Of a DNA stretch of 64,000 nt, positions 9,247 to 57,962 are shown piece by piece. Under the pieces are notes generated by a model. That model was not told the origin of the DNA. It saw only the letters and a list, made by a program, of their open reading frames with translations, and did no database searches. Every line of letters starts with the position of its first letter. Position 1 is the first letter of the stretch. The translations under genes were made by a program, and so were the position numbers. The stretch is from the IMG/VR virus record IMGVR_UViG_3300045049_000125, positions 1 to 64,000 of that record. One strand, given 5' to 3'. The stretch comes from a virus.

Positions 9247-9247
9247 T

Positions 9248-10900: not shown

Positions 10901-10902
10901 CC

Positions 10903-17244: not shown

Positions 17245-17275
17245 TTCGTACTCCGAATGTGTGTTAGGTGTGAGA

Positions 17276-17303
17276 ATCATACACCCTAATTTGAAACTGT
17301 CAA
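17276..17303 (-). promoter_or_regulatory. sigma70-like promoter
   Basis: TTGACA-N16-TATGAT. Confidence 0.7.
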
Positions 17304-21159: not shown

Positions 21160-21161
21160 GG

Positions 21162-21929
21162 TCAGCAGGCGCAGGAGAAGAACGACGGCGAACGGTCGTA
21201 TTCGTTTTCACCAGTCGGCCGCTTGCCGGTGATGATTTCGTACTTGTCCCAAAACACGGGATCAGTGCTGACGCCCTCAAGGAGGCCGCCCTTGGTGAGG
21301 TAATCACCGCCCCACTTCGATTCGGGATCAACCCACGAATCGGCATAGCGCATCAGCTCGTAATAGCTGACTTCCGCATAACCGTCATCATAATCCGAAC
21401 CGCTCAGGCTTTCGGCGTAGTTGTCGATCCAACACACGGCGGCGCAGACCTTGGCGACCTGTTCTTCGTATTGGAACGACGTGAAGTTCCCCACTCCGCC
21501 CATGCGGTCGGCCCAATCGATCATGGCATGCCGAACGCGCTTGTCCTCAGGACTGACGGAATGCGGTTGCTTCGGCTTGTCGCTGCCGTCTTCCGTGGTC
21601 TCGGGGAAGGACGGATGCTCCCACACGTGGCGCAGGCTCTTGACGGTGCGCGGCAGCAAGACGAGCCAGAAGCGCTCACCCATCATCACGTTCCGCTCAA
21701 GGAACGGATCGACAATGCCGGTTGCCTCCTTGCCGCTCCGGCCGCCGGCCGAATACGCCTTGCCGTCCGGACCGAGATACACGCGGTCGCCGGGGCTGAA
21801 ATAGCCGCCGGCTTCGGCAGGATAGACCGCGAGGTGGATCGCATCGCGCTTCTCGTTCTCGGTGATGATCGTGCCCAGGGTTTCCAGCGCGTCGGTGGTG
21901 ACGCTGCGCTTGTCGCCATTGTTTACCAT
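21162..21929 (-). CDS. Hypothetical phage protein
   Basis: Start MVNNG after GAGG; RDAIH, GIVDPFL and LRHVWEHP motifs; ends FFSCAC. Confidence 0.65.
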   Translation of the reverse strand: MVNNGDKRSVTTDALETLGTIITENEKRDAIHLAVYPAEAGGYFSPGDRVYLGPDGKAYSAGGRSGKEATGIVDPFLERNVMMGERFWLVLLPRTVKSLRHVWEHPSFPETTEDGSDKPKQPHSVSPEDKRVRHAMIDWADRMGGVGNFTSFQYEEQVAKVCAAVCWIDNYAESLSGSDYDDGYAEVSYYELMRYADSWVDPESKWGGDYLTKGGLLEGVSTDPVFWDKYEIITGKRPTGENEYDRSPSFFSCAC

Positions 21930-21964
21930 TTTGAAATCCTCAGTTATGTGGTTGTTGCCGGCGC

Positions 21965-21992
21965 AGTGTATTACGCCGGCGTTGATTGTCAA
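21965..21992 (-). promoter_or_regulatory. sigma70-like promoter with -10 inside an inverted repeat
   Basis: TTGACA-N16-TACACT; GCCGGCG...CGCCGGC flanks the -10. Confidence 0.65.
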
Positions 21993-23527
21993 GCGGCCAA
22001 ACCGTACGTCCCATGCACTCCGGCCATAATTCGCTCCGCGATTACGCGCAGGCTTTCGAGCTGTTCAGATACTTGGATCGACACACTGTACTCAGCTTCA
22101 CGCCGAGCACGCGCGTCCGAATCCCGTTCAGCCTGCTTTTCGGCGGTCTCCGTCCCCGCCCGCTGCTCGCGTTCCAGCTTGAGGCGAAGATGCGTTTTGC
22201 GCGGCAAGCGGCCGTTGGCGATGTCGGCGCGGCGCTTGTAGCGAGCAGCCACCTCGGCGGCTTTCTTTTCATCACGCTCGCGGCGCAGGCGTTCCGAACG
22301 CGATTCCACGCGAGCCAGCGCATTCACTTGCTCTGCGACGGCCGCCTGTTCGGCTTCCTGAGCAGCCTTCGCTGCCTTGGCGGCTTCGTTGGCCGCACGC
22401 TTCTTGAGCTGTCGCGTCTGCCATGACTTGTCCTTGTAGTGGCGGAAGCGCCGCGCAATCTGCTTGGCTTCGTCTTCGTAATCCGCCGGGTCAAGCCCGA
22501 GCATTACCAGCATGTTTTTGAACCCTTCAAGGCGCTTTTCGAGCGGCATCATGCGCAGTTCGTCATTGTTCTCCGGAATGTCGGTGGCGTCGAACGTCAG
22601 CGCGGTTTGCCGGCTCACGTGGCGCACGATGGCGTCAACCAGACGAACATACTTGGAAAGGTCTTCGACGTTTTCCGGCATTTCAAAATTGCGGAATTCG
22701 ACGGTTCCCAGGCTGTTTTCGACGCGAACGATATAGTCTTTCGCCATCGGCAGCGTAACCGCACCATACTGAAACGACGTCTTATTCATCCCTTTCTTGC
22801 GGTAGATCAATCGCTTGCGCGAATCGTGCAGGCGCGCATAGACATTTTCCAGCTCGCGCAGCCAGTAATTGCGATCCCACTCGTACATCCATTCGCTGCG
22901 CTGATGCAGGTTGCGAGTAAGCTGCTGAATCTCGCGGAGATTATCCGCAATGTCCATTTCAATCTGTTCCACGGTCTGAACGCTTGCGCCACGCAAGCCG
23001 AGATGTACGGCCGTCAGCGGTTCGGCGTTGATGTTGTCCGTCAGGCCAATGAACGCCCAGGACAACCACGGATTCTTCGCCGCGAAGACGGCCATGCGGC
23101 GGCAGTACAGCTTGCGCGCGCTCAGGTCGCCGATGTGGCGCGTATCGGTGTGAATGTGGGCGCCACCGCCATTGAAATGCACGAGCTTCGGCGTCAGGTT
23201 CAGGCTTTCCGCATGGTGCGTGATGACGCGCGCCCGACGCATGAGGGCATCCAGCGATTTGTAAGGTTTCGTGGGGACTTCCACGCAATCCGGGTCCGTA
23301 CCGCAGTGGTAAACCGCAACCTTGCGTAGGCGGAGAATCGTTTTGAGCTGTGCCGCGAAGAAGCACACCGCGCTATGGCGGTCATGCACGCAAGATGCCC
23401 AACCCTCGTCTTCATCGTCATCGTTGCGCAGATTGTAGAGCGCACCGTAAGCATCGGCTATTTCGTCCCACACGGCCGGCATGTAGGTCAGTTCAATGCC
23501 CATCTTGGTGGCAAGCTGCAAATTCAT
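21989..23527 (-). CDS. Putative amidoligase (COOH-NH2 ligase family) with charged coiled-coil tail
   Basis: MGIELT, CVEVPT, GGGAHIH and TVEFRNF motifs. Confidence 0.7.
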   Translation of the reverse strand: MNLQLATKMGIELTYMPAVWDEIADAYGALYNLRNDDDEDEGWASCVHDRHSAVCFFAAQLKTILRLRKVAVYHCGTDPDCVEVPTKPYKSLDALMRRARVITHHAESLNLTPKLVHFNGGGAHIHTDTRHIGDLSARKLYCRRMAVFAAKNPWLSWAFIGLTDNINAEPLTAVHLGLRGASVQTVEQIEMDIADNLREIQQLTRNLHQRSEWMYEWDRNYWLRELENVYARLHDSRKRLIYRKKGMNKTSFQYGAVTLPMAKDYIVRVENSLGTVEFRNFEMPENVEDLSKYVRLVDAIVRHVSRQTALTFDATDIPENNDELRMMPLEKRLEGFKNMLVMLGLDPADYEDEAKQIARRFRHYKDKSWQTRQLKKRAANEAAKAAKAAQEAEQAAVAEQVNALARVESRSERLRRERDEKKAAEVAARYKRRADIANGRLPRKTHLRLKLEREQRAGTETAEKQAERDSDARARREAEYSVSIQVSEQLESLRVIAERIMAGVHGTYGLAA

Positions 23528-23569
23528 GAATCGGCTCCGTATGTGTGATTTGTGTGTGACAACGGAGCC

Positions 23570-23598
23570 AGATTAATGGCTCCGTTTTAGATTGTCAA
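23570..23598 (-). promoter_or_regulatory. sigma70-like promoter with -10 inside an inverted repeat
   Basis: TTGACA-N17-TAATCT; AACGGAGCCA...TGGCTCCGTT flanks the -10. Confidence 0.7.
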
Positions 23599-24110
23599 GC
23601 TTTCCCATTCACCTTTTTCACGTGAACCAACACGCGAAGATGAAGGCATTGAATGTTGTACCCGCCTGCGCGGATCGTGCTGACAGTCACGCGCTGCTCG
23701 CCGGCATCCGTCATCACATAGAAAACGCCGTTGAAGCCATCGGAGGAACGAGCGTAAGCGCTGCTCAAAACTTCCGTTACGCCGGCCTTGTCCAGCTTGC
23801 GGGCGATGGTGGCATTGCGCTTGGCGACGACGGCGGCGCTGTGCTTGTCCATGAGCGCATCGATATCGGCGACCGGGCAGCCGTACAGGCGCTTATACCA
23901 TGTCTTTCCGCCCGCGATGGCGAACAGAATTTGATAGTAGCGCCACACATTCCGGGAAAGGGACTTGGCCTCGTCGGAGGCTTTCCATTCATTGATGGCC
24001 GCAACACGCTCGTGCGCCCATTTACGAGCGGCGGCCGCGACTTCGACGTCCAGCGGAGCGAACAGGTCGTTCAGGCTGGCGATGATGGCTTGGCGGGCTT
24101 CGTGCGACAT
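23595..24110 (-). CDS. Hypothetical phage protein
   Basis: 171 aa with a C-terminal TI.AGGYNIQCLH.R motif; preceded by the leader motif. Confidence 0.7.
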   Translation of the reverse strand: MSHEARQAIIASLNDLFAPLDVEVAAAARKWAHERVAAINEWKASDEAKSLSRNVWRYYQILFAIAGGKTWYKRLYGCPVADIDALMDKHSAAVVAKRNATIARKLDKAGVTEVLSSAYARSSDGFNGVFYVMTDAGEQRVTVSTIRAGGYNIQCLHLRVLVHVKKVNGKA

Positions 24111-24138
24111 AGGATTCTCCGAATGTGTGAATTTTGGA

Positions 24139-24372
24139 TTAAGCGATGGTGATGACGGAGCAGGTGTGACCTTCGGTGGTCTTGGTGGTCAGCGTGGCGC
24201 CCTTGAGACGGGCAAAAGCCTTGGCGGCCTCGGCGTGCTTCTTGCCGGTGACGATGATGCACGTGTCATCGTTACCCCACGCCTTGGCGCGAGCCACCAA
24301 GATTGCCACGTCAGCGCCGAAGGTCTTGCGGGCGGACTCGTTGATGGCGCGAATGTCGTTGGTCAGGCTCAT
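24139..24372 (-). CDS. Hypothetical protein
   Basis: 77 aa, first gene after the promoter at 24405-24432. Confidence 0.6.
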   Translation of the reverse strand: MSLTNDIRAINESARKTFGADVAILVARAKAWGNDDTCIIVTGKKHAEAAKAFARLKGATLTTKTTEGHTCSVITIA

Positions 24373-24404
24373 GGCGGCTTCCGGTTGTGTGGTTGGTGAA
24401 GCTC

Positions 24405-24432
24405 ATACTACTCCGATTTAAAACCGTGTCAA
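24405..24432 (-). promoter_or_regulatory. sigma70-like promoter
   Basis: TTGACA-N16-TAGTAT; spacer nearly identical to the promoter at 30236-30264. Confidence 0.7.
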
Positions 24433-24445
24433 CACCTTTTTGAAA

Positions 24446-24874
24446 TTATTTTTCGAGGTTGTCGGTTCGCTGACGATGGCGGGTGCATATCCACGCCCAT
24501 TCCCGTGCGAAGCGTTCGCCTGAGGGTATGCCTGAATCCCGATATTGGTCCGGCTGAACGGTTTCCCAGCGATAGAATTCCTTGTCCTTCGCGAACAAAC
24601 GACGAAACCGCATCGGATCGCAATGGCGCGTGCGCGGCTTGCGCAGGTTCGGCGTCAGCTCGAAAGGCATGGATGTCGGAAGGAAGCGAAAGGGGGTTGC
24701 GCCGGTCACGTCAGAGTCTTCCTCGAAGGGGTCAGGGAGGTATGCCGGATAAATTCGATATAGGACGACGCAACGACAACGTGGAAGCTCTTCATACGGC
24801 GCTATCCAGTGGTTACGCAACCACTTGTCGTCAACCGGGCCGGGCGTGGAGAAGTAGCCAAGCGAACCGGTCAT
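24446..24874 (-). CDS. Hypothetical protein
   Basis: Start reassigned to MTGSL after GGAG. Confidence 0.5.
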   Translation of the reverse strand: MTGSLGYFSTPGPVDDKWLRNHWIAPYEELPRCRCVVLYRIYPAYLPDPFEEDSDVTGATPFRFLPTSMPFELTPNLRKPRTRHCDPMRFRRLFAKDKEFYRWETVQPDQYRDSGIPSGERFAREWAWICTRHRQRTDNLEK

Positions 24875-24875
24875 G

Positions 24876-25130
24876 TCACAGCTCCGGACCCTTATCAAGC
24901 ATATGCTTGAGGCGCATGCACGTGTGGCAGTCGCGAAGCGTCTTAACAGCTCGTTCAAGATCACGAATCGATTTGTCTGCCGCAAGAATGTCCAAGGGCT
25001 GCGCATAGGCAGGCATGGCTTCGGCGATGTCCAGGATTTCGGATACAGCCATATTAAATAGAGCTGGCGCCTGAATGGGAAGCATTTGAAATTCCTTAGT
25101 GGAGAATGTGCCCGGGTGAACGTTCGACAC
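24876..25130 (-). CDS. Hypothetical protein
   Basis: ORF in the packed run; start uncertain. Confidence 0.45.
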   Translation of the reverse strand: MSNVHPGTFSTKEFQMLPIQAPALFNMAVSEILDIAEAMPAYAQPLDILAADKSIRDLERAVKTLRDCHTCMRLKHMLDKGPEL

Positions 25131-25341
25131 GCATCACCTGAATACCTATTTCAGAGGAAATTGCCTCTATGCGGTCGCTTAATTGGAAATTGAAATCAAC
25201 TCCGGGATTTAGAGGCGAAGTTTCGACATATTGGATATCCAGGTCTGTAACGATGACTGTGACATACGGAGATTCAAAATCCACCGTGTCACAGTGGTAA
25301 AACGCCATACCGTATTTTAAACCATTATCAGACATTTTCAC
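25096..25341 (-). CDS. Hypothetical protein
   Basis: 81 aa, AT-rich. Confidence 0.5.
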   Translation of the reverse strand: MKMSDNGLKYGMAFYHCDTVDFESPYVTVIVTDLDIQYVETSPLNPGVDFNFQLSDRIEAISSEIGIQVMRVERSPGHILH

Positions 25342-25546
25342 CTCTGCGCTTAATTGCGGATTTAATGCGTCTTACACGACGCACGCTTAGGGCTTTCATA
25401 GACTGCGCTTTGCGCATGCTTTCCTCAGCCCTAGCGATTCGATTTTCCTCCGCATTTAGCCACACTTGAAGTGTGAGAAGTGAAGTATTCGGGTTTTCAA
25501 TATCGGCCAATAAATCTCTATCTCGATTGCGTTCAGAAGCTTTCAT
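25328..25546 (-). CDS. Hypothetical protein
   Basis: 72 aa, basic and helical. Confidence 0.5.
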   Translation of the reverse strand: MKASERNRDRDLLADIENPNTSLLTLQVWLNAEENRIARAEESMRKAQSMKALSVRRVRRIKSAIKRRGENV

Positions 25547-25635
25547 GATTTCTCGTAGTCGTGACGTAATACAAGGCTCACTGTACAGCTAAAGAAATAC
25601 GTTTAGCAAGCCCATACAGCAGTTGCCGAAAACCT

Positions 25636-25744
25636 CGACATAGGGAACATAGGCATGCTACCCTCAACGATGTGATAGCGGTTCCACCGCAGCCCGGGAC
25701 GGCTTCTCATCACCTTGAGGTATGCATGCACTGTTCCTATGTCG
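25636..25744 (+). ncRNA. Structured element E1: 109-nt rod topped by two hairpins (RNA or ssDNA)
   Basis: About 33 bp of imperfect inverted repeat; 43-nt core homologous to the reverse complement of 57776-57819; functional strand uncertain. Confidence 0.6.
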
Positions 25745-25764
25745 CCGACCGAAATTTAGTCATT

Positions 25765-25790
25765 AAAAAGCCCGCTTTACGCGGGCTTTT
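25765..25790. terminator. Bidirectional intrinsic terminator
   Basis: AAAAAGCCCGC-tttac-GCGGGCTTTT. Confidence 0.8.
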
Positions 25791-25801
25791 CTGTTTAAAA
25801 C

Positions 25802-26818
25802 TCAACCCGGCCATTTCCAGAATTCGGCCAAAATGGGCGGTTGTGCGAATCCCCAGCGGTGCGCAATCCCCATGGCATTCAGGCCGCGAGCTGTGGCCTG
25901 AATCAGTCGTTGGGCGAGTGTACGCTGTGCCATTCGGCGCCACTCGTCTCCCTTCTTGCGAGCGACATCTCCCGTCTCAGGGTGCAGACCCATATCACGC
26001 AGGAAGACGATCCCGCCTGTGGGAAGCGTGATTCGCAGGCCGGCAACCTGTGGAGTAAGGCGCACGTTTTCAAACGTGATTCGATGCGCCGGGCGGTTTT
26101 CGCCATCCTTCACCGGACCCACATCGATGGTGACTGGTTGCGCCGAATCCAGCGCGATTTTAGACGCGAGATACACATTTTCGGTGAACATCTCTCCATG
26201 CACCTGCGCCAGTATCGTGGCATTGCCCGGACCTTGCCAACCGGCCGATTCGATGCCATGGGCATCCATGTGCATCGCCTCGTCAAAATCGTAACCTAGC
26301 GCTTGCAGGATGTGCATACCTTTCAAATGGGAAGTGTTCATGAGCCATGCGAACGTCCACGCCACGCCACCCCAATCAAGGTTTGCTGCGAACGTCCCCG
26401 GCTCGCCGCCGGCCTTGATGTAGGCGCGGATACCGTTCACCCACGCCTGTGCGGCCGGATCGTGATCTACGCCCGCGCGAACCAGTCCCTCGGCGTCCAC
26501 GTGGTCGCATTCGTACGTGATTGCCAGCAAATCCAGGCTCCCCACCTGATATCCCTTCAATCGATCACAGAGAACCGAGCAACCCGTATCCATGTCCGGA
26601 TTGATGAACCAAATCTTGTCGGACACGTTCATGAGTTTGCGCGCCAGTTCGTTGCCGAGGCGTGTGGGGAAATCCACCTTGTTCACGCGCCGAAGATCAC
26701 TCAGGCGCGACAGGCGCGGGCCGAACTCTTCAAAGGGCAATACCTGTTGGAGCGGATACATCGGATAGATGCCCGAATCGGCGTATTCGATGTAATCGGG
26801 CGTGACATTGATGAACAT
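25802..26818 (-). CDS. Hypothetical protein
   Basis: Start MFINV after GAGG; 338 aa; no family recognised. Confidence 0.65.
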   Translation of the reverse strand: MFINVTPDYIEYADSGIYPMYPLQQVLPFEEFGPRLSRLSDLRRVNKVDFPTRLGNELARKLMNVSDKIWFINPDMDTGCSVLCDRLKGYQVGSLDLLAITYECDHVDAEGLVRAGVDHDPAAQAWVNGIRAYIKAGGEPGTFAANLDWGGVAWTFAWLMNTSHLKGMHILQALGYDFDEAMHMDAHGIESAGWQGPGNATILAQVHGEMFTENVYLASKIALDSAQPVTIDVGPVKDGENRPAHRITFENVRLTPQVAGLRITLPTGGIVFLRDMGLHPETGDVARKKGDEWRRMAQRTLAQRLIQATARGLNAMGIAHRWGFAQPPILAEFWKWPG

Positions 26819-26819
26819 T

Positions 26820-27356
26820 TTAAAATCCTCGGTAGATGAGTCCACGGAATGTGCCACATTCCTGGCAAAACCAACAGTGTTTAGGGTTCTCGGCTCCGCA
26901 TGGCGTGTATTCGCCTTCCTGAGCAATCAGCCCCATGGCGCGCGAGCGCATCGGGAAGGGCTCTCCGCAGCGCCACGTGCGCCGCGCAGGCTCAAGCCCT
27001 AGAATTGGCTCGGGCTCCATCACGTGGACGATAGGACGCGGCATGGCGATCTTCTCGAAGTACCGGCGCACGCCCTTCCATCGCTTGTCGCTGTCCACGC
27101 GGTGCATGTTGTAGCGCTGATGGACGATGCACACATCCACCGGACCCATGCGGCGCTTGTTCGCGCTGTAGTGGCTCAGGGCCATGACAAGCACTTGGTC
27201 ACGATGGTCGCAGCCTGCCGACAGATTGCGCTTAGGTGGATGCGCAAGGATGTGGTCTGCGAGCATGGCCGCGTCTTGTGGAAACGCTTCGAGAATCAGC
27301 ACCCGTGCGTTAGGGCGCTGATTCAAAACGTTCGCTAGGATTGTCATGATTTCCAT
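26820..27356 (-). CDS. Hypothetical protein with C-terminal Zn ribbon
   Basis: C...CGAEN...CWFCQECG. Confidence 0.55.
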   Translation of the reverse strand: MEIMTILANVLNQRPNARVLILEAFPQDAAMLADHILAHPPKRNLSAGCDHRDQVLVMALSHYSANKRRMGPVDVCIVHQRYNMHRVDSDKRWKGVRRYFEKIAMPRPIVHVMEPEPILGLEPARRTWRCGEPFPMRSRAMGLIAQEGEYTPCGAENPKHCWFCQECGTFRGLIYRGF

Positions 27357-27359
27357 GGA

Positions 27360-27590
27360 TCATTTCCAGCGCGCACCCGTCCGACCGCTGATTTTATGCT
27401 GCAAGATCATTTCGTAAGTTTCCCCGTTGTGCAGCTCCACCACGGCGCGGGAATCGTGCTCACCCGTCTCGCCCAACCAGTTGAGCGCGTACTCAATGGC
27501 GTCCGTCTGTTCGTAGTCAGGATTGCCGCGAACGATGCTCTGCTGCGCGCAGAGCGTTCCGGCGCTGTTATAAAACTTGACCTTAATCAC
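27360..27590 (-). CDS. Hypothetical protein
   Basis: 76 aa, AGGAG RBS. Confidence 0.55.
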   Translation of the reverse strand: MIKVKFYNSAGTLCAQQSIVRGNPDYEQTDAIEYALNWLGETGEHDSRAVVELHNGETYEMILQHKISGRTGARWK

Positions 27591-27719
27591 GTTTGAAAAT
27601 CTCCTTTATCCGTTTGCGTTCGGCCCGCTTCGCTTGTCGTTTCTGCTGCTTAATTGCACGTTTCTCCGCACGCTTCTTGTTGCGTGCGGGATCGCGAGCC
27701 TTGTCGTCACGTCCGGCGG

Positions 27720-27965
27720 TCATGGCGTCGGACGTGTCACCTTGTGGGCCATCACCGCGCTGTACGCGGTGCGAACGTCGCAGTCATGCATGTCGCGATA
27801 GGCGCGCACCGCTTCGACCGTCAGTCCGGCATCCATCAGCTCCGGCCACGGAATTCCTTCGCACAGCTCGCGAAGTTTGGCATCCAGCGCATCGCGTTCG
27901 GCCTTGATCCTCAGAATCTCTTTCATGGTCATTCCACGATGAATAGTTCGCCGCACATCTCGCAT
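27720..27965 (-). CDS. Hypothetical protein
   Basis: EAVRAYR...CDVRTA motif, reminiscent of small L7/L12-CTD-like phage proteins; start uncertain. Confidence 0.45.
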   Translation of the reverse strand: MRDVRRTIHRGMTMKEILRIKAERDALDAKLRELCEGIPWPELMDAGLTVEAVRAYRDMHDCDVRTAYSAVMAHKVTRPTP

Positions 27966-28062
27966 TCGGTGAAGCCCGTGAAATCACCTTCTTGTTCAAG
28001 GGCTTCCCCGCAGGCGGGACAGTCGAAATGGGTGTAGATGAATCCGGAAACGCTATCCATGG

Positions 28063-28365
28063 TCAATCCTTCCCCTCGAACAGTTCCGGGCACAGGGCGC
28101 GGCAGACGGCGAGCGCGCCCTCGCGATCCAGCACCACGCTATTGCCCATGGAGCGTGACGTTTCACGCTTTCCGGGACGGCTGTAATGCTCCACCATGTG
28201 CAGATCGATATGCGCATGATGACCATCTTGCGCTCGCTTATCCGCCACGTTGCGAATTTTCAGCGTGGAAACCGTAACACATCCGGTAAGCACGTCATTC
28301 ACCTGATTAACTACCACGGGATAAAGCGAATCCTCGTGGAGCGTAGCGACTTTCTGAACGTACAT
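28063..28365 (-). CDS. Hypothetical protein
   Basis: Start MYVQK after GAGG. Confidence 0.55.
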   Translation of the reverse strand: MYVQKVATLHEDSLYPVVVNQVNDVLTGCVTVSTLKIRNVADKRAQDGHHAHIDLHMVEHYSRPGKRETSRSMGNSVVLDREGALAVCRALCPELFEGKD

Positions 28366-28369
28366 GGTT

Positions 28370-28528
28370 TTAATCCTCGTCAGCGTTGCGGCACGGCGCA
28401 TTGGCCGCGCGGTTAGTGGCGTCGTTCTTTAGCCAGATGAGACCGCAGTGAGCGCAGACCGGCCAGTGGCAAATGGTCCACAACCAGCGGTGGGACTTGT
28501 CTTTCTTGGGTTTGAACTTGGGAGCCAT
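28370..28528 (-). CDS. Small Cys/His hypothetical protein
   Basis: H.W...CAHCGL. Confidence 0.5.
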   Translation of the reverse strand: MAPKFKPKKDKSHRWLWTICHWPVCAHCGLIWLKNDATNRAANAPCRNADED

Positions 28529-28532
28529 CGTA

Positions 28533-29435
28533 TTACATTCCGAAATACTTTTCAAAGCAAATAGGGCCAATGCCTCGGTCGATGCTTTCCCCGTTGGTCA
28601 GCTCGCGACCGCAGCAGGAACACACGCCGAAGCGCTTGCCGTAGGCGATGGCCGATTGTGCGGGATCGGCGGTGACGGCCACGATTTCCGCTGTCTGCTC
28701 GGCAGTGCAGTCGCGCGTGCCCAGGAAGCGGCCGTTCACGATCTTGCCCAGGTAATCGCCCGTGGCCTTGTGCTTCACGTACACGGCGCCTGCGTTGACG
28801 CTCTGCGCCTTGGCAAGCGAGAAGACGAATGCGTGATGCTCGCCGGCAAGGAGGATTTTCGGCGTCCGGATGCCCTTTTCCGTGGCTCGGATGAGGCTTT
28901 CCTTGATGTTCGAGACCGCGACCGCAGGCGCCTTGGCTTCGCGTTCAGCCTTGGCGGCAGCCAGCTTCGCCACGCAAGATTTAGCGGCGGCTAACTGGCG
29001 CTCCGTCAGCTCGCCGAACTTCTCGGCGGTCTCGCGCAGGCTAATGGCGAAATCGAAGTTTGAACCTGTCCACCATCGCACGATGTCCGGATGAGCGGCG
29101 CAGAACGCGGCGAATTTCTCGGCCACGGCATTCTGCTTGCGCTCCTTGGCCTTGCGCGAGGCGGCGCGGCTCTTGGCTCGCTGTTCCGGGCTGGTGGCGA
29201 ATTCGAGCTTTCCCGTACCGCCGCATTTGAAGCATGTCGAACCGTGGATGCTGTAGCCACGATATCGGCCGGTGCCCATGCACTTGGGGCACTTTTCGAT
29301 GTAGGGGTGCACTGCCGGTAGCGCCTTGACCTGCGTGATGTCGGTGGGAACGCCCAGGCGCTCGGCCAGCTTATCAAGCTGGCCCACGTTAAGGCGCACA
29401 TCGTCCAGGTCGTTCAGGTCGTTGAAGTCGATCAT
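28533..29435 (-). CDS. Zinc-finger protein with C-terminal DUF6011-like domain
   Basis: CPKCMGTG...CFKCGGTG; C-terminal CSCCGRELT..ESI.RGIGPIC. Confidence 0.75.
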   Translation of the reverse strand: MIDFNDLNDLDDVRLNVGQLDKLAERLGVPTDITQVKALPAVHPYIEKCPKCMGTGRYRGYSIHGSTCFKCGGTGKLEFATSPEQRAKSRAASRKAKERKQNAVAEKFAAFCAAHPDIVRWWTGSNFDFAISLRETAEKFGELTERQLAAAKSCVAKLAAAKAEREAKAPAVAVSNIKESLIRATEKGIRTPKILLAGEHHAFVFSLAKAQSVNAGAVYVKHKATGDYLGKIVNGRFLGTRDCTAEQTAEIVAVTADPAQSAIAYGKRFGVCSCCGRELTNGESIDRGIGPICFEKYFGM

Positions 29436-29438
29436 GAC

Positions 29439-29642
29439 TCAGCCCTCCGCCTTGAGAAGACGAGCAGCCATCATGTGCTGCACCTTTACGTTATTCCAGA
29501 AAACAAGGTCGGCAGCATTGGAACGGATGCTGAAAGCATCGGGGATATGGCGACCATCTTGGCGAATCTCCACGATCATGCGGGAAGCGTCGCGGGCCTC
29601 GCGGATGTGGAAACGAATCTTGGCAGCAGTGGAAGCGCGCAT
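29439..29642 (-). CDS. Hypothetical protein
   Basis: Start MRAST after CACACATTCGGAG. Confidence 0.55.
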   Translation of the reverse strand: MRASTAAKIRFHIREARDASRMIVEIRQDGRHIPDAFSIRSNAADLVFWNNVKVQHMMAARLLKAEG

Positions 29643-29672
29643 GTTGAACTCCGAATGTGTGAAAGTGGAACT

Positions 29673-29701
29673 AGAATATAGCTCCACTTTAAAACTGTCA
29701 A
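29673..29701 (-). promoter_or_regulatory. sigma70-like promoter
   Basis: TTGACA-N17-TATTCT. Confidence 0.7.
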
Positions 29702-29943
29702 GCGTCGATGCCGGGGAAGTAGTACGAAAGCGCCTTCCGACCTTCCGCCAGACAATCCGCCATTTCCTCGGAAAGCCAGCCTAGTCCCCGTGCACGCTTT
29801 TCGGCCAAATGCACGAAATTCAGCAGCGCGTTGACGACCGGAGGAACGTGGTCTCGCTGTTCGCGCAGCCATTCGGCAGTGAGCGGCGCATGATGGGTTT
29901 CAGCAACGATGGCGGCGCCTTCAAACTGATTACGAATGTTCAT
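29698..29943 (-). CDS. Hypothetical protein
   Basis: 81 aa, preceded by the leader variant CACACAGACGGGAG. Confidence 0.55.
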   Translation of the reverse strand: MNIRNQFEGAAIVAETHHAPLTAEWLREQRDHVPPVVNALLNFVHLAEKRARGLGWLSEEMADCLAEGRKALSYYFPGIDA

Positions 29944-29973
29944 GGTGAAACTCCCGTCTGTGTGGGTTGTTGG

Positions 29974-30201: not shown

Positions 30202-30235
30202 GTTCGCGATTCCGTCTGTGTGGTTGGCGGGAGTC

Positions 30236-30264
30236 ATCATCTCACCAATTTAAAACCGTGTCAA
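30236..30264 (-). promoter_or_regulatory. sigma70-like promoter
   Basis: TTGACA-N17-GATGAT. Confidence 0.6.
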
Positions 30265-32333
30265 CGGTTCAATTTGACGTATTCGTGCGGATAGCCGAAT
30301 TGGTCATTTTCGTGAAAAATCTCGAAGAAATGACGGGTTGCACCGGCTTTGAGCAGAGCGTTCACGCGGTTACGATCCCATCCCGGCCAGCCCGGCATCT
30401 CCCAGCACATCGCGTGCACATGTTCGCGCGTACCGGGTTTCATGGTGAACCGTTCCATATTCGTCCGGAACATGAAGTCAGCCAGCAACGCGCAATCTTC
30501 GTCAGAAATGCCGTTGTTACCCTGCGCAATGGGTCCGTTGCTCAGGTTCGAGGTAAACGCTTCAAGATCGGGCGCCGCATCGATCACGCATGACATATCG
30601 GGCTGGCCCCATTGATCGGTTCCAACCTGTACACCCTTCAATACAAAATTCGCACCGATATTGTCCGCGCCGTCCTTCACCTTCTTCGTGGACCATGAAC
30701 GAATGCCGCTGTCGCGGTCACGTTTAACCTCGATAGCCGAATCGATGCCTGCCAGAAATGCGCTAGACCCTCGCGGACCGCGCTCCGTGTCCTTACCGCT
30801 ATGGTGAATCAGGATCACCACGCATTGCGTCTCACGAGCCAGGGTTTCGACCGCAACGAGATATTTCGACATCTCGGCCATGTCGTTTTCGTTCATGCCC
30901 GGCGCCGATTTCGCCAGCGTATCGATGCAAATGACGCCCTGACGCTGCTTGTTCTTGTAGATGGTGCGAATGAGCTTTTCCATATCTTCGGATTTGAGAA
31001 TGTTCAAGCCATTCGTGAGCATCATCATGCGGCCCATGTTGCCGTGATGGATGCGATAGGCATACACGCGATTGCGCAAACCGGCCTCGCCTTCGAGACC
31101 AACATAAGTCACAGGGACTTGCCGTGTCTTGCGACCGAACCAGTCATGACCGGATGCCACGGCCGCGAGCATATCCAGTGCAAGGAACGTCTTGCCCGAG
31201 CCCGAAGGCCCGTACACTGATGCCACCCCGCGTGCAGGCAACACGTTGTGAATGATCCACTCGGTTTGTGTGTATTCGGTCACGTCGTCAGTCCACAGTG
31301 CAGGGAATTCTTTTTCGCCATCCTCTTCGCCGAAAGCAATTTCAATGTCTTCGGGATTGAACATTCGCCCCGATGCTTCAAGATCGGCGGCGGCGGCATT
31401 GATGTTTCGTTTAAGCCATCCCTCATATTGAGCCCGGCTCAGACCTGCGCGATTCTCGGAGCGATTCATGTACTCCGCGCATGGACTCTGCGTGTATAGA
31501 CGCAATACCTGCTCATAATTTAATGAGCACTGTATCAGGTCCATAACCACTTGATAATGCATGTCAGAACCTCCCGTTTGGGATTGGTTCTTGTACATGT
31601 AATTTGCAGTCTCTGGGCAGCGGCGGAACATCTGCACCATGACTTCAAAATCCGTATGCTTCGGATTATCGTGCCATTGGGCATTACTTCCTTGCGCTGC
31701 CTCTTTTGCAAGAGCGCAGCGTTTGAACAAGTAGTTTTGGAAATTTTCAGGAAGTGTGGAGAAATCAGCAAATCCCATGTCGGGATCGCTTACCACATCA
31801 CCTGTTAGAAACACGAAACCGTTAACAACGCGAGTATCTACTTTTTTCTCGCCGTTGTTGGTATTGCTCAATTGAGCCGCTTCAATGTCGCTCAACCAGT
31901 AAAAAGCGTGATAGCCCACACCCGACACACTGCGCTCCGTCCACGTGGGAGCGCGGTCCAAGATGTCATAGTGGGCTTGCTGTGTGAGCGCGGGCGTCGT
32001 CGGCGCGTCCGTGTCATCCAAATCCACACAGACGAGATTTTCAGGCATGTACAAAATGAGGCCGTGTACCTTGTTAGGCTGCTCGGCCTTGAGGTATTCG
32101 ACTTCCTGAAACGCCTCTTCAAACGACATAGACGTTTCGAGACGGTTGGGACTGTAGCGTTCCCCCGTCACGGGATTGCGACCCACGGTCTTCACCACAT
32201 CACCCGCATCATCCCAATGCGTCGAATAGGTGCCGAATCGGAAATCTTGGAAGTTGCGGAAAATCTCCGGTGTTACATGCGACTGTGCAGTCGCCACTGC
32301 TTCTCCGGAAAAATCGAAATTCAAATCTGCCAT
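30261..32333 (-). CDS. Primase/polymerase (AEP-like) fused to a RecA-fold AAA helicase
   Basis: N-terminal VCVDLDD...ERSVSG.GYH; Walker A GPSGSGKT, IDTL and IHHSGKD..RGPRGSS. Confidence 0.85.
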   Translation of the reverse strand: MADLNFDFSGEAVATAQSHVTPEIFRNFQDFRFGTYSTHWDDAGDVVKTVGRNPVTGERYSPNRLETSMSFEEAFQEVEYLKAEQPNKVHGLILYMPENLVCVDLDDTDAPTTPALTQQAHYDILDRAPTWTERSVSGVGYHAFYWLSDIEAAQLSNTNNGEKKVDTRVVNGFVFLTGDVVSDPDMGFADFSTLPENFQNYLFKRCALAKEAAQGSNAQWHDNPKHTDFEVMVQMFRRCPETANYMYKNQSQTGGSDMHYQVVMDLIQCSLNYEQVLRLYTQSPCAEYMNRSENRAGLSRAQYEGWLKRNINAAAADLEASGRMFNPEDIEIAFGEEDGEKEFPALWTDDVTEYTQTEWIIHNVLPARGVASVYGPSGSGKTFLALDMLAAVASGHDWFGRKTRQVPVTYVGLEGEAGLRNRVYAYRIHHGNMGRMMMLTNGLNILKSEDMEKLIRTIYKNKQRQGVICIDTLAKSAPGMNENDMAEMSKYLVAVETLARETQCVVILIHHSGKDTERGPRGSSAFLAGIDSAIEVKRDRDSGIRSWSTKKVKDGADNIGANFVLKGVQVGTDQWGQPDMSCVIDAAPDLEAFTSNLSNGPIAQGNNGISDEDCALLADFMFRTNMERFTMKPGTREHVHAMCWEMPGWPGWDRNRVNALLKAGATRHFFEIFHENDQFGYPHEYVKLNR

Positions 32334-35908: not shown

Positions 35909-35920
35909 TTGAAACTCCGA

Positions 35921-56031: not shown

Positions 56032-56997
56032 TCACAAGTCAGGAATGACGCTATGGCCGTCGCATCCGGCCATCTGAGCAGTCTTGTTCAACGTGAAATC
56101 GAACTTGTCACACAACCATTGCGGCTCACCGTCCGCACCGAGAACCGTATCAGGGCGAGACCATTGGCATGTGCGGCAATTGCGTTCCACTTCACGAAGC
56201 TGACCGCGAATCGGCAAGCACAGCTTTTTAAAACTACACCACTTGCAGGTCAGCTTTCCCAATCCGGCTCCGCGAATGCGCATAGGTGGCTTCGGCGAAT
56301 GCACGACGACATGCGCGCGGTCCATGTACTGCAAAGCCGTCTCGCGGTTGTATTCCACGATTTCCGCATACAGATCGTCATCGTTCTTGTTGACGGCGAA
56401 GAACAGGCAGTATCGGAGACCGAATTTGTGCATGTAGATTTGCATCTGGACATAGTAGGTCTCGTCACTCATCCGCACGCCGTTCAAAACCAGCTCTTTG
56501 AATCGCTTCTCGTTGTAGGTTTTGTATTCATTGAGCCAGGGCTCGCCCGGCATGGCGTCTGGCAGGTTGTGGACAATGCCGTCCATGGAACCCGCGAAAT
56601 GTCCATCTGAGGACTGGAAACGGAGCTGTTTCCCGTTGCGTTGCTGTTCGACTTTGCAGCCAATCATCAGAAGCATGGCTATAAACCGTGCTTCTTCAAG
56701 ATGACCACGATTCCACAGACGAAGCATACGCGCCCGCTTCTTCATCTCCGTGATTTCATCGTCTGCCAGCGCAATCGGGTCTTCGCCTACCCATCGAAAC
56801 GCATACCAGATGGAGCGAGCACATTCCTTGCCAATTTGGGAGGCACCGAGATGCTGTCGTTTACCTTCATCCTCGCCACGATATGCATCGGTCATGTGGG
56901 GCAGCACCTTGCCCAGCCAATAGCGGAATTTGGCACCTCCATCCGCGTTGATCGCGTCCGTAATGGCCTGCAACGTGCGCTTAGCTTGCATTGACAA
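56032..56997 (-). CDS. Cas4-like PD-(D/E)XK exonuclease with Cys cluster
   Basis: HLGASQIG.EC.R, GS.DG, EYKT, Q.Q.YM and CKWC....C motifs. Confidence 0.85.
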   Translation of the reverse strand: MSMQAKRTLQAITDAINADGGAKFRYWLGKVLPHMTDAYRGEDEGKRQHLGASQIGKECARSIWYAFRWVGEDPIALADDEITEMKKRARMLRLWNRGHLEEARFIAMLLMIGCKVEQQRNGKQLRFQSSDGHFAGSMDGIVHNLPDAMPGEPWLNEYKTYNEKRFKELVLNGVRMSDETYYVQMQIYMHKFGLRYCLFFAVNKNDDDLYAEIVEYNRETALQYMDRAHVVVHSPKPPMRIRGAGLGKLTCKWCSFKKLCLPIRGQLREVERNCRTCQWSRPDTVLGADGEPQWLCDKFDFTLNKTAQMAGCDGHSVIPDL

Positions 56998-57646
56998 GTT
57001 CCTCGGGATGCTCAGAAAAATGGGCTTTTAAATCGTTCATGAAATAACCATGGATATTCCACACATACCACTTTTCTTCCTTCCCTCGTGCGTTTATTTC
57101 CGTGTAGAGCTGCGCCGCATCGTCCACGCCTTCACCTGGGACAAGCATGCCGTCCTCCATGCGAGCAACGCCCCACAAAAGCATCAGGTCTCGCACACGC
57201 TTCGGACTCGCGCCCAATATCTGCGCGATGTTGTAAAGCGACGTATAGCCTTCCGGATATTCGCGTTTTGGATGCTGTCCCGGTAGCGCATCCTTCGGCG
57301 CTTCCATGTTCTTTTTTACGATGGGTCGAAGAATTTCAACCATGGAAGGATGCAGGATCATCCAAGACTTCGATGTCCCTGTATGAGGATTGAAATCCTC
57401 ATACATCTTAACCAACCCTTCCGCCTTACTTGTCAATTCGCCATTGGTGAGCGAATAGCGACCAGTAACCAACGCCTTTTGAACTTGGACCCATGCACCG
57501 AATCCTGTGAGACCCAGCGCCTTGGCTACTTGCGCACGACTCATAAAACCGTCTTCGTAGGTGCGTGCGTCACCACGTGAACGCTTTGGTTTCGGCCCCA
57601 TTTCCTTTGCTCGCTTGACATAAAACTCTCGATCACTGCGTTTCAT
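56981..57646 (-). CDS. Putative DNA-binding protein with two tandem antirepressor/wHTH-like repeats
   Basis: Repeats YEDGFMSRAQVAKALG... and YPEGYTSLYNIAQILG... Confidence 0.55.
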   Translation of the reverse strand: MKRSDREFYVKRAKEMGPKPKRSRGDARTYEDGFMSRAQVAKALGLTGFGAWVQVQKALVTGRYSLTNGELTSKAEGLVKMYEDFNPHTGTSKSWMILHPSMVEILRPIVKKNMEAPKDALPGQHPKREYPEGYTSLYNIAQILGASPKRVRDLMLLWGVARMEDGMLVPGEGVDDAAQLYTEINARGKEEKWYVWNIHGYFMNDLKAHFSEHPEELVNAS

Positions 57647-57672: not shown

Positions 57673-57726
57673 AGTTGCCTATACAGCGTTGCCTATAAAG
57701 GGCACTGATGCAAGTTGCCTATACAG
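57673..57726 (+). repeat. Three direct repeats GTTGCCTATA(C/A)AG
   Basis: Copies at 57674, 57688 and 57714. Confidence 0.8.
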
Positions 57727-57739
57727 TGACCGAAAAATT

Positions 57740-57848
57740 TTGACTACTTGATACGAAGTATGGTAAGCTCAAATGGATGAGAAGCCCTCCGGGGCTGCGG
57801 GCGGAGCCGCCATCACATCAATGAGCGCATACCTCTATCAGTAGTCAA
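57740..57848 (-). ncRNA. Structured element E2: 109-nt rod topped by two hairpins (homolog of E1, inverted)
   Basis: TTGACTAC(T)TGATA...TATCAGTAGTCAA stem; core 38/44 identical to E1; functional strand uncertain. Confidence 0.6.
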
Positions 57849-57962
57849 CCCGCCGTTTCGTTGATGTTTGAAACAAGCCAAACGTACAGCATCTGCTTTA
57901 CGCTAACTTGTTGATTTCATACGGTACGTGTACCCTTGCGCGCGTCATGACGAGGGTACCCA

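What the first reader, a model, noticed from the sequence alone, without database searches (positions are those of the whole stretch)
25636..25744. Element E1: one of two homologous 109-nt rod-plus-kissing-loop structures in inverted orientation 32 kb apart
Seen: the intergenic segment folds into an imperfect rod of about 33 bp (CGACATAGG.AACA...GCATGC.TAC.CTCAA.GATG.GA paired with its complement). The rod is capped by two adjacent hairpins, GCGG-TTCCA-CCGC and AGCC-CGGGAC-GGCT. The core 25669-25711 (GATGTGATAGCGGTTCCA-CCGCAGCCCGGGACGGCTTCTCATC) matches the reverse complement of 57776-57819 (GATGTGATGGCGGCTCCGCCCGCAGCCCCGGAGGGCTTCTCATC) at 38 of 44 positions. Five of the six differences fall in the two loops, which stay mutually complementary in both copies (GTTCC:GGGAC here, CTCCG:CGGAG in E2). 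The long arms have diverged in sequence but keep pairing and overall length, which points to selection on structure. Inference: (a) a small RNA with a helix / three-way junction / interlocking-loops topology, the same topology as phi29 prohead RNA but with no sequence similarity claimed; an intrinsic terminator lies about 20 nt downstream on +; or (b) a pair of strand-specific ssDNA priming signals, analogous to RSF1010 ssiA/ssiB or Frpo, used by the phage primase or host RNAP. The left arm contains TCGACA-N18-TACCCT. I do not recognise the element as a known family.
Basis: partly seen in the sequence, partly recalled or inferred. Interest (0 to 1): 0.85.

Follow-up and report, generated by a model that had tools for sequence, protein, structure and literature searches.

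The report
Paired foldback DNA elements flanking replication genes
A soil phage carries two related 109-base foldback sequences, one at each end of its block of replication genes. They match nothing known and are most likely DNA signals for starting replication, but this is unproven and an RNA role is still possible.

Summary
E1 (25636-25744) and E2 (57741-57849) are the two strongest palindromic rods in this 73.8-kb soil myovirus. They fold well on both strands (z -5 to -6). They share a 64-column core (49 identical columns) in inverted orientation, while their long arms are unrelated in sequence but each self-complementary. Of 15 core differences, 13 fall in unpaired positions and 2 form one compensatory pair (P about 5e-5).

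The kissing-loop claim is weak: 17% of random substitution sets keep 5 or more pairs, and the apex alone is not unusually stable.

No homologue was found in Rfam, 16 related phage records, or pattern scans of viral, metagenome and genome collections.

The only phage found with the same replication module (G001) has non-homologous long palindromes at both syntenic sites, each next to short direct repeats. One of those regions also has two perfect DnaA boxes and an AT-rich tract. Relatives that share only the portal gene have no rod upstream of the portal.

My best reading (0.38) is a DNA-level replication element: a hairpin-type origin or priming signal, working like IncQ ssiA/ssiB or the pRN1 stem-loop origin. 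RNA readings total about 0.3. The phi29 pRNA analogy is disfavoured. No transcription or replication data were available.

The parts
25636..25744 (.). E1: 109-nt imperfect palindrome (rod plus branched apex)
   Evidence: Folds at -52.1 (+) and -53.3 (-) kcal/mol, z -6.0 on both strands. Top foldback of the genome.
25660..25722 (+). E1 conserved core: helices P1 and P2 plus two 4-bp hairpins, or alternatively one hairpin with a 10-nt loop ACCGCAGCCC
   Evidence: 49 of 64 columns identical to 57765-57828(-). Covariance model R1 scores 88.7 bits. Differences avoid paired columns, P = 4.8e-5.
25610..25627 (+). One degenerate copy of the E2-side direct repeat (GCCCATACAGCAGTTGCC), left of E1
   Evidence: Local alignment to 57677-57693 scores 24; 1 of 300 shuffles does as well.
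25747..25757 (+). GACCGAAATTT motif next to the rod, also found beside E2
   Evidence: Read. The 8-nt match alone is not significant (79 of 300 shuffles).
25766..25790 (.). Bidirectional intrinsic terminator between the 374-aa gene and E1
   Evidence: -16.5 (+) and -19.0 (-) kcal/mol, z about -5, with A and T runs on both sides.
57741..57849 (.). E2: second 109-nt imperfect palindrome, core inverted relative to E1
   Evidence: -47.0 (+) and -48.5 (-) kcal/mol, z -5.1. Second-best foldback of the genome.
57765..57828 (-). E2 conserved core
   Evidence: R1 scores 91.2 bits; alignment A4.
57673..57726 (+). Three direct repeats (A/C)GTTGCCTATA(C/A)AG, with TTGCCTATACAG-type cores at 57675, 57689 and 57715, between E2 and the 221-aa gene
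   Evidence: At 2 or fewer mismatches the motif occurs at only two other places in the 73.8-kb genome (18544, 72285), and at most 1 mismatch only here.
57728..57740 (+). GACCGAAAAATTT, a short A/T run between the repeats and the rod
57740..57769 (+). Sigma-70-like TTGACT-N18-TAAGCT inside the left arm of E2, pointing at the portal gene
   Evidence: Position-weight score 11.1, rank 20 of 590 sites in the genome. The counterpart in E1 (25635-25664) scores only 7.3.
56981..57646 (-). 221-aa protein with two winged-helix DNA-binding domains; first gene of the leftward replication block and the likely binder of the repeats
   Evidence: No Pfam or PHROG hit. 13 homologues. AlphaFold2 mean pLDDT 89. 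Both halves resemble MerR/RacA/Xis-type winged HTH domains, Z 4-6.
30261..32333 (-). Primase-helicase (weak Prim-Pol match plus RepA-like AAA_25 domain); candidate reader of the folded core
   Evidence: PF13481 at 3e-37; PF09250 at 5e-4, below its cut-off; PHROG primase and helicase families.
25802..27356 (-). 374-aa and 178-aa genes of unknown function that end the replication block just upstream of E1; syntenic in G001
   Evidence: tblastn to G001 at 9854-10615 and 10621-11151. No family hits.

Best explanation
E1 and E2 are two copies of a cis-acting DNA element that belongs to the phage's replication gene block. Each is a long imperfect palindrome. When the duplex is unwound or supercoiled, either strand can fold back on itself. 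The diverged arms only supply the stem. The conserved 44-64-nt branched apex is the sequence-specific part, read in folded single-stranded form by a phage protein, most plausibly the PrimPol/RepA-like primase-helicase. Short direct repeats beside each rod are probably bound by the neighbouring 221-aa double winged-helix protein, which would mark or open the site. Because the two cores lie on opposite strands, at the two ends of the leftward replication block, they would act as origin, priming or helicase-loading signals for opposite strands. This works like ssiA/ssiB of IncQ plasmids or the 100-bp stem-loop origin of pRN1, and the two-site layout resembles SPP1 oriL/oriR.

Shown: the structure potential, the substitution pattern, the position, and co-inheritance with the replication genes. 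Inferred: that the element acts as DNA, which protein binds it, and the replication role.
For: 1. The foldback potential is equal on both strands, and G.U pairs are rare: 0-3 of about 40 pairs in E1 and E2, and 1-2 of 48-66 in the two G001 rods. That is what full Watson-Crick dyad symmetry gives. An RNA selected on one strand would be expected to show asymmetry.
2. The core differences avoid paired positions: 13 of 15 are unpaired and 2 form a compensatory pair, hypergeometric P = 4.8e-5. All pair cells are paired. So a folded form is under selection, not only a duplex binding site.
3. E1 and E2 occupy the two largest non-coding gaps of the genome, 255 and 316 nt. They bracket the leftward block that holds helicase, Cas4-like nuclease, DNA polymerase, clamp, ligase, SSB and primase-helicase.
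4. G001 is the only phage found with this replication block. It has unrelated long palindromes at both syntenic sites: 9335-9470 after the 374-aa homologue and its terminator, and 35667-35842 between the 221-aa homologue and the portal. Both sit next to short direct repeats. The first region also has two perfect DnaA boxes in inverted orientation and an AT-rich tract.
5. Portal-sharing relatives with a different upstream neighbour have no rod there.
6. Direct repeats flank E2, and one degenerate copy flanks E1.
7. The primase-helicase combines a weak Prim-Pol match with an AAA_25 domain; that AAA_25 includes RSF1010 RepA-type helicases is from my own knowledge. Replicons with such enzymes use hairpin signals: RSF1010 ssiA/ssiB (PMC8567376) and the pRN1 100-bp stem-loop 3' of the primase-helicase gene (PMC3869888).
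8. Cumulative GC-skew and AT-skew minima fall at 58175 and 57694, at E2. This is confounded by the switch in gene orientation there.
Against: - There are no replication, priming or binding data of any kind.
- The phage's own E1 and E2 regions have no DnaA box and no real AT-rich unwinding tract; none of the ten most AT-rich 100-nt windows lies at E1 or E2.
- The two G001 palindromes share no core with each other. A common reader of a conserved apex is therefore specific to this phage.
- The two copies are 32 kb apart, whereas IncQ ssi sites lie within one origin.
- E2 carries a fairly good promoter-like site aimed at the portal gene, and E1(+) is followed by a terminator. Both features fit RNA readings.
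- E1(-) and E2(+) are in the same sense as local transcription.
- The skew signal is confounded by gene orientation.
- The comparison rests on one sister phage only.
Confidence: 0.38

Rival explanations
1. RNA element read in the sense of local transcription (E1 on the minus strand, E2 on the plus strand). It would be a long intercistronic or leader hairpin that is cut by RNase III or protects the mRNA end, as at the T7 RNase III sites, marking the start of two transcription units (the 72-aa gene block and the portal/structural block).
For: E1(-) and E2(+) carry the same core orientation, and each lies 90-115 nt upstream of a gene on that strand. Rods of about 33 bp with internal loops are the right size for RNase III. 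Paired positions are conserved. Other relatives have long rods in co-directional intergenic gaps.
Against: E1(-) lies downstream of a strong terminator, with only 23 nt and no promoter-like site in between. No sigma-70-like promoter lies upstream of E2 on the plus strand; the only good one is inside the left arm and would leave the outer rod untranscribed. There is no strand asymmetry and G.U pairs are few. Portal-sharing relatives lack the rod.
Confidence: 0.18
2. E1 is a small-RNA gene on the plus strand, about 125-165 nt, ending at the terminator 23 nt downstream. Its apex is complementary to the E2-containing leader of the portal mRNA, which is also on the plus strand. This would make an antisense regulator and its target, as with P1/P7 c4 or P4 CI RNAs.
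For: E1(+) is followed by a terminator that works on the plus strand, and all neighbouring genes are on the minus strand. Promoter-like sites sit in the left arms of both elements on the plus strand, with predicted starts at the first base of the conserved core. Because the cores are inverted, same-strand transcripts are complementary at 38 of 44 positions.
Against: The differences between the copies are concentrated in the loops, exactly where antisense pairs start pairing, so inter-molecular loop matches are only 3-4 bp. The E1 promoter is weak (7.3). In G001 the two rods share no sequence, so no such pairing is possible there. There is no match to any Rfam antisense family.
Confidence: 0.1
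3. A duplex regulatory palindrome: an operator or cruciform-prone region that holds or hides promoters at transcription-unit boundaries, bound by the 221-aa winged-helix protein or another regulator. It would control the switch between the early/replication genes and the structural genes.
For: E2 and the G001 palindrome lie between divergent genes and carry a sigma-70-like promoter in the arm facing the portal. The arm mismatches favour that strand: TTGACT-18-TAAGCT ranks 20 of 590, and G001 TTGACA-17-TAGGTT ranks 7 of 812. A DNA-binding protein gene with upstream repeats is adjacent. The arms contain short tandem words (ACATAGG x2 in E1; TTGACTAC/TTGATAC in E2).
Against: A duplex site does not explain why the core differences avoid intrastrand-paired positions. 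E1 sits in a co-directional gap after a terminator. The arms of E1 and E2 differ completely, so they would need different binders.
Confidence: 0.12
4. A neutral or selfish palindrome: a quasi-palindrome kept symmetrical by template switching during replication, or a small mobile foldback element, with no function for the phage.
For: Perfect Watson-Crick symmetry without G.U pairs is what template-switch correction produces. The arms differ between copies while each stays self-complementary.
Against: Palindromes occur at the same two syntenic sites in a phage whose portal is only 54% identical. The core is conserved while the arms have diverged beyond recognition. No other copies were found in viral, metagenome or 185,579-species genome scans. 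No transposase or recombinase was found among the proteins tested.
Confidence: 0.08
5. A phi29 pRNA-like packaging RNA that binds the portal.
For: The topology resembles a helix plus three-way junction with two loops. E2 is 115 nt from the portal start.
Against: There is no Rfam match. The phage has an ordinary large terminase. Portal-sharing relatives lack the element. The loop complementarity is not significant. The apex is not unusually stable.
Confidence: 0.02

Closest known systems
IncQ plasmid RSF1010/R1162 oriV: ssiA and ssiB read by primase RepB', with RepC iterons and RepA helicase (PMC8567376)
   Same: Two highly similar hairpin-forming signals lie on complementary strands, next to iterons. 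They serve an AEP-type primase working with a RepA-type helicase. Here both activities appear to be fused in one 690-aa protein.
   Different: ssiA and ssiB are 40 nt long and sit together inside one origin. E1 and E2 are 109 nt with a branched apex and lie 32 kb apart in a 74-kb tailed phage. No sequence relation was tested. The GTG triplet lies 5' of the small hairpins here, not 3' as in ssiA.
pRN1 origin: 100-bp stem-loop 3' of the prim-pol/helicase gene orf904 (PMC3869888)
   Same: A stem-loop of about 100 nt lies downstream of the operon that encodes a primase-polymerase/helicase. Its apical loop is the critical part, as proposed here for E1.
   Different: pRN1 is an archaeal plasmid with one copy of the stem-loop, a 58-nt loop and an AT-rich setting. 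Its mechanism is itself unsettled.
Bacillus phage SPP1 oriL / oriR (from my own knowledge)
   Same: A tailed phage with two homologous origin-like sites far apart in the genome.
   Different: The SPP1 sites are arrays of direct repeats plus an AT-rich box bound by gp38. They are not long palindromes with a conserved apex.
Single-strand DNA promoters: F plasmid Frpo, filamentous-phage minus-strand origin, ssoA of rolling-circle plasmids (from my own knowledge)
   Same: A long hairpin whose stem carries -35 and -10-like hexamers (E2: TTGACT-18-TAAGCT; E1: TCGACA-18-TACCCT).
   Different: Those elements serve single-stranded replicons that lack a primase. This phage encodes its own primase, and the E1 hexamers are weak.
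phi29 prohead RNA
   Same: A helix plus three-way junction with two loops that can pair.
   Different: There is no model match. The element is not inherited with the portal. The phage packages with a standard terminase. The loop pairing is not significant.
T7 RNase III processing hairpins (from my own knowledge)
   Same: Repeated intergenic imperfect hairpins with a similar core, in the sense of transcription.
   Different: Transcription of the full rods is not supported by the promoter and terminator layout, and there is no strand asymmetry.

Membership tests
phi29-type prohead RNA (pRNA) | Match to the curated RNA family model | tested here: not met
   Rfam 15 at gathering threshold finds only tRNAs in the window. 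Permissive mode finds nothing at E2 and only terminator-driven weak hits at E1.
phi29-type prohead RNA (pRNA) | Loop-loop complementarity kept by covariation | tested here: inconclusive
   Both copies allow 5 pairs, but in different registers. 17% of random substitution sets do as well.
phi29-type prohead RNA (pRNA) | Inherited together with the portal and packaging motor | tested here: not met
   19 loci with portal homologues were scanned; only G001, which also shares the replication block, has a rod upstream of the portal.
IncQ ssiA/ssiB-type priming signals | Two highly similar hairpin-forming sequences on complementary strands | tested here: met
   The cores match at 38 of 44 positions in inverted orientation.
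IncQ ssiA/ssiB-type priming signals | Both signals lie within one origin next to iterons and an AT-rich tract | tested here: not met
   The copies are 32 kb apart. Repeats are clear only at E2. There is no AT-rich tract at either site.
IncQ ssiA/ssiB-type priming signals | Cognate AEP-type primase and RepA-type helicase encoded by the replicon | tested here: met
   The 30261-32333 protein has AAA_25 at 3e-37, Prim-Pol at 5e-4 (below its cut-off), and PHROG primase families.
IncQ ssiA/ssiB-type priming signals | Primase binds the folded single strand and starts a primer at a fixed base | not testable with these tools
   This needs purified protein and single-stranded templates.
Iteron-type phage or plasmid replication origin | Direct repeats for an initiator, an AT-rich unwinding element, and often DnaA boxes | tested here: inconclusive
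   This phage has three repeats at E2 and one degenerate copy at E1, no DnaA box and no AT-rich tract. The sister phage G001 has all three features at the E1-syntenic site.
Single-strand DNA promoters (Frpo, M13 minus origin, ssoA) | -35 and -10 hexamers at promoter spacing inside the hairpin stem | tested here: inconclusive
   E2 scores 11.1 (rank 20 of 590) and E1 scores 7.3. G001 R2 scores 12.5, and no such site was seen by eye in G001 R1.
c4 / CI-type phage antisense RNAs | Match to the family model, and loops complementary to the target | tested here: not met
   No Rfam match. The differences between the copies sit in the loops.
RNase III processing hairpins of phage mRNAs | The whole hairpin is transcribed within a polycistronic RNA | not testable with these tools
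   No RNA run holds this phage. The promoter and terminator layout argues against it.

The most novel reading that the evidence does not exclude
A tailed phage starts synthesis of its two DNA strands from two separate, strand-specific hairpin signals placed 32 kb apart at the ends of its replication gene block. Each signal would be read in folded single-stranded form by a fused PrimPol/RepA-like primase-helicase. This would be an IncQ-like leading-strand priming scheme split across a 74-kb viral genome. Related phages would keep the palindromes but change their sequence.
Probability: 0.15. Interest if true: 0.75.

Novelty: new variant of a known kind. Interest (0 to 1): 0.5.

Why it matters
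Replication origins of most tailed phages outside a few model systems are unmapped. If these paired foldbacks are origin or priming signals, they give a concrete, testable site for a whole replication module of the PrimPol/RepA-like primase-helicase type. They would also show hairpin-type initiation signals, so far known from small plasmids, working in a large virulent phage. The pattern of a conserved branched apex on freely diverging self-complementary arms is also a clean natural test case. It separates selection on a folded nucleic acid from selection on sequence. If the element turns out to be an RNA, it would be a new phage RNA family with no relatives in Rfam.

Tried and rejected
The contigs behind the closest portal relatives (P0002 and P0003, 64-65% identical) and the closest 221-aa homologue (P0124, 43%) could not be fetched.
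- DNA similarity: no match to phage records. In plasmids only the terminator hairpin matches.
- Exact-pattern scans: viral contigs gave 0 and 10 hits, metagenome contigs 62 and genome contigs 74. None scored above E about 0.05 with model R1, and all are pattern-forced chance matches.
- Model R1 on 16 whole related phage records found nothing. There is no third copy in the phage's own genome.
- The search for related loci with the 374-aa protein, the primase, alignment A5 and alignment A6 returned nothing or only G001.
- Sequencing runs: no RNA holder is listed. The contigs laid show a roughly 90-97% identical relative in two runs, but its sequence at E1 was not among the rows shown.
- GC skew: the minima fall at E2 but coincide with the switch in gene orientation, so they are not usable as evidence.
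- Raw folding-energy scan of the genome: confounded by GC-rich coding windows.
- DnaA boxes: none in this phage's E1 or E2 regions.
- 221-aa protein: Foldseek against the PDB gave nothing at E of 0.001 or better. VIA gave only moderate Z of 4-6 to winged-HTH domains. No support for a plasmid Rep-type initiator fold was obtained.
- Considered and dropped:
  - Diversity-generating retroelement template/variable repeat pair: no reverse transcriptase among the proteins tested, the differences are not adenine-specific, and the orientation is inverted.
  - Retron: no reverse transcriptase among the proteins tested.
  - Invertible segment: no recombinase found among the proteins tested.
  - cos/pac site: the large terminase gene is 16 kb away, and a second copy would not be explained.
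  - Host repeat family (REP, ERIC or MITE-like): no copies elsewhere.
- Earlier notes calling the 374-aa and 178-aa neighbours a dead PolA and a dead helicase paralogue: no sequence support.

Full report
**What the window is.** The window is 64 kb of a 73,839-bp IMG/VR virus record with a 127-bp end overlap. It was assembled from soil or rhizosphere metagenomes. The portal is 43-46% identical to those of Pseudomonas phage tabernarius, Burkholderia phage BcepF1 and Serratia and Escherichia myoviruses of about 68 kb.
- Structural genes run rightward from the portal (57963) around to about 10.3 kb.
- A leftward block starts at 57646 and ends at a terminator at 25.8 kb. It holds a 221-aa protein, a Cas4-like nuclease, a helicase, a clamp-like factor, DNA polymerase, RusA, the large terminase, six tRNAs, thymidylate synthase, ligase, a methyltransferase, SSB and a primase-helicase.
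- The leftward genes continue down to about 10.3 kb with small unknown genes, a kinase and an endolysin.

**The observation.** E1 (25636-25744) and E2 (57741-57849) are as described.
- All four strands fold into long imperfect rods, at -47 to -53 kcal/mol, z -5.1 to -6.0, and no shuffle does as well.
- The E1/E2 pair is the longest inverted repeat of the window.
- With a foldback score that tolerates bulges, E1 and E2 rank first and second in the genome (20 and 18; mean 7.1, sd 1.5). Shuffled genomes reach 14-19. The rods are therefore convincing mainly because there are two of them, they are homologous, and they sit in the two largest non-coding gaps (255 and 316 nt).
- The conserved block is wider than reported: 25660-25722 versus 57765-57828(-), 64 columns, 49 identical.
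- Outside the core the arms share nothing, yet each pairs with its own partner.

**How strong the structure evidence is.**
- Of 15 differences in the 64 columns, 13 lie in columns that are unpaired in the two-hairpin model. The other two form one compensatory pair (C-G to G-C). The hypergeometric P is 4.8e-5, and 1.1e-3 for the inner 44 nt.
- The pair count is 100% paired with one covarying pair. With two sequences this is all that can be had, and the structure was derived from the same sequences.
- The kissing-loop claim is weaker than stated. The two copies pair their loops in different registers, and 17% of all substitution sets at the variable positions keep 5 or more contiguous pairs.
- The same bases can instead form a plain 5-bp helix that closes a conserved 10-nt loop, (A/C)CCGCAGCCC. 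This is the minimum-energy fold of E1(+).
- The apex alone is not more stable than shuffles (z -1.3 and -1.2).

**Search for relatives.**
- Rfam 15 finds only the tRNAs at gathering thresholds. In permissive mode it finds nothing at E2 and only terminator-driven noise at E1.
- A covariance model of the core (R1) finds only the two own copies in the window, in the whole genome and in 16 related phage records.
- Exact-pattern scans of IMG/VR, JGI metagenomes and one genome for each of 185,579 species returned only chance matches. Phage and plasmid BLAST found nothing but the terminator.
- The element is therefore an orphan and is not a host repeat family.

**The informative comparison: sister phage G001.** The one phage that shares the replication block is G001 (IMGVR_UViG_3300044656_000109, 41 kb, 65% complete). 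Its portal is 54% identical, primase-helicase 49%, nuclease 58%, helicase 51%, the 178-aa protein 39%, the 374-aa protein 27% and the 221-aa protein 31%. No other relative has these genes.

G001 has its two strongest palindromes at exactly the two syntenic places.
- One lies at 9335-9470 (72% GC in the 120-nt window around its centre, about -77 to -79 kcal/mol). It comes after the 374-aa homologue and its terminator.
- The other spans 35667-35842 (about -100 kcal/mol). It lies between the 221-aa homologue and the portal.
- Neither resembles E1 or E2, and they do not resemble each other.
- Both have short direct repeats on the same side as in this phage: TGCGTAAAGT four to five times next to the first, and GCATATAAC-type words about six times next to the second.
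- The first region (830 nt, non-coding) also holds two perfect DnaA boxes, TTATCCACA, in inverted orientation 65 nt apart, and an AT-rich tract.
- Relatives that share only the portal, with a different gene upstream, have no rod there.
- So what is conserved is a long palindrome beside repeats at both ends of this replication block, and it is inherited with the replication genes, not with the portal.

**Local anatomy in this phage.**
- Left of E2 lie three direct repeats of GTTGCCTATA(C/A)AG (57673-57726). No other site in the genome matches with fewer than two mismatches.
- Left of E1 lies one degenerate copy in the same orientation (25610-27; 1 of 300 shuffles).
- The gene next to the repeats encodes a 221-aa protein with no family match. 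It has 13 distant homologues. A confident model (pLDDT 89) shows two tandem domains that resemble MerR/RacA/Xis-type winged helix-turn-helix domains at Z 4-6. Foldseek found nothing clear. It is the obvious candidate to bind the repeats.
- On the other side of E1 is a terminator that works on both strands.

**DNA or RNA?**
- Neither strand is favoured. The energies differ by 1-3 kcal/mol, in no consistent direction relative to the core.
- G.U pairs are rare in all four rods on both strands. That fits full dyad symmetry at the DNA level better than an RNA selected on one strand.
- For an RNA reading: E1(-) and E2(+) have the same core orientation and each precedes a gene on that strand. E1(+) is followed by a terminator. 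The left arms carry sigma-70-like sites on the plus strand, with predicted starts at the first base of the core (E2 TTGACT-18-TAAGCT, rank 20 of 590; E1 weak). G001 has TTGACA-17-TAGGTT in the corresponding arm (rank 7 of 812).
- Against the RNA readings: those promoters would leave the outer rod untranscribed. E1(-) lies behind a strong terminator with no promoter in between. If E1 and E2 transcripts were an antisense pair, the loops should be the best-matched parts, yet that is where the copies differ.
- No RNA data exist for this phage.

**Best explanation.** I favour a cis-acting DNA element of the replication module (confidence 0.38). It would be a foldback that presents a conserved apex to a phage protein, most plausibly the 690-aa primase-helicase (AAA_25 at 3e-37 plus a weak Prim-Pol match). 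A repeat-binding protein would sit next to it. The two copies, on opposite strands, would serve opposite strands.

The closest working models are:
- RSF1010 ssiA/ssiB with RepB', RepA and RepC (PMC8567376);
- the 100-bp stem-loop origin 3' of the prim-pol/helicase gene of pRN1 (PMC3869888);
- the two-site layout of SPP1 oriL/oriR (my own knowledge).

It is not a member of any of these families. The size, the branched apex, the 32-kb separation and the lack of an AT-rich tract or DnaA box in this phage all differ.

**Rivals.**
- A sense-strand RNA hairpin for processing or stability: 0.18.
- A duplex regulatory palindrome around the early/late promoters: 0.12.
- An E1 small RNA antisense to the portal leader: 0.10.
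- A neutral or selfish palindrome: 0.08.
- A pRNA-like packaging RNA: 0.02.

**Earlier notes of this scan.** Unchecked AI notes describe duplicated repeat-plus-hairpin modules in other phages and read them as origins. That agrees with my reading but is not independent evidence. Notes calling the 374-aa and 178-aa neighbours dead polymerase and helicase copies found no sequence support here.

**Verdict.** This is a real, structured, orphan pair of elements with positional but not sequence conservation in the one comparable phage. Most likely it is a new variant of hairpin-type replication signals. An RNA role is not excluded. Interest is moderate (0.5).

Noticed in passing
window 56981-57646 (-): The 221-aa protein has no Pfam or PHROG family. 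It is built of two tandem repeats, each modelled as a MerR/RacA/Xis-like winged helix-turn-helix domain. Only 13 homologues turned up among 1.84 billion representative proteins.
   Followed up: partly
window 57925-57962 (+): An inverted repeat GTACCCT...AGGGTAC lies just before the portal start codon. It would sequester the GAGGG ribosome-binding site in a hairpin, which may give translational control of the portal. G001 also has a roughly 20-bp hairpin between its rod and the portal start (35868-35915).
   Followed up: no
window 17242-17303, 23570-23598, 24108-24432, 29640-29701, 52838-52890 (-): A family of near-consensus sigma-70 promoters (TTGACA-N16/17-TAnnnT), several of them followed by a shared leader CACACATTCGGAG before the start codon. 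These are probably the early promoters of the phage.
   Followed up: partly
L173 (G001) 8817-9643: An 830-nt non-coding region in the sister phage contains two perfect DnaA boxes within a 14-nt inverted repeat, a 36-nt direct repeat holding TGCGTAAAGT pairs, GGTCATTTT repeats, several further palindromes and an AT-rich tract. It is a strong candidate origin.
   Followed up: partly
G002 about 67360-67480; G003 about 5330-5450, 28140-28250, 57090-57200: More distant relatives also have long intergenic palindromes. In G002 and G003 (5390) the arms are made of short tandem words (for example CAACTATYC, CGATCTTR) in inverted arrays. These look like protein-binding site arrays rather than simple hairpins.
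   Followed up: no
window 25802-27356 (-): Earlier scan notes read the 374-aa and 178-aa proteins as degenerate PolA and helicase copies. Pfam, PHROGs, PDB sequence search and BLASTP against the phage's own helicase gave no support. Both proteins are conserved in G001, and the 178-aa protein ends in a weak zinc-ribbon-like match.
   Followed up: partly
window 43260-43811 (-): A RusA-like Holliday-junction resolvase is encoded in the same phage as the long palindromes. An extruded cruciform would be a possible substrate for it.
   Followed up: no
window 21000-30500 (runs X3, X4): A second strain or close relative, about 90-97% identical in fragments, is present at low depth in other soil and rhizosphere runs. 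It includes a 460-nt deletion/replacement at 27902-28363 and a diverged 90-nt stretch at 24911-25002.
   Followed up: no
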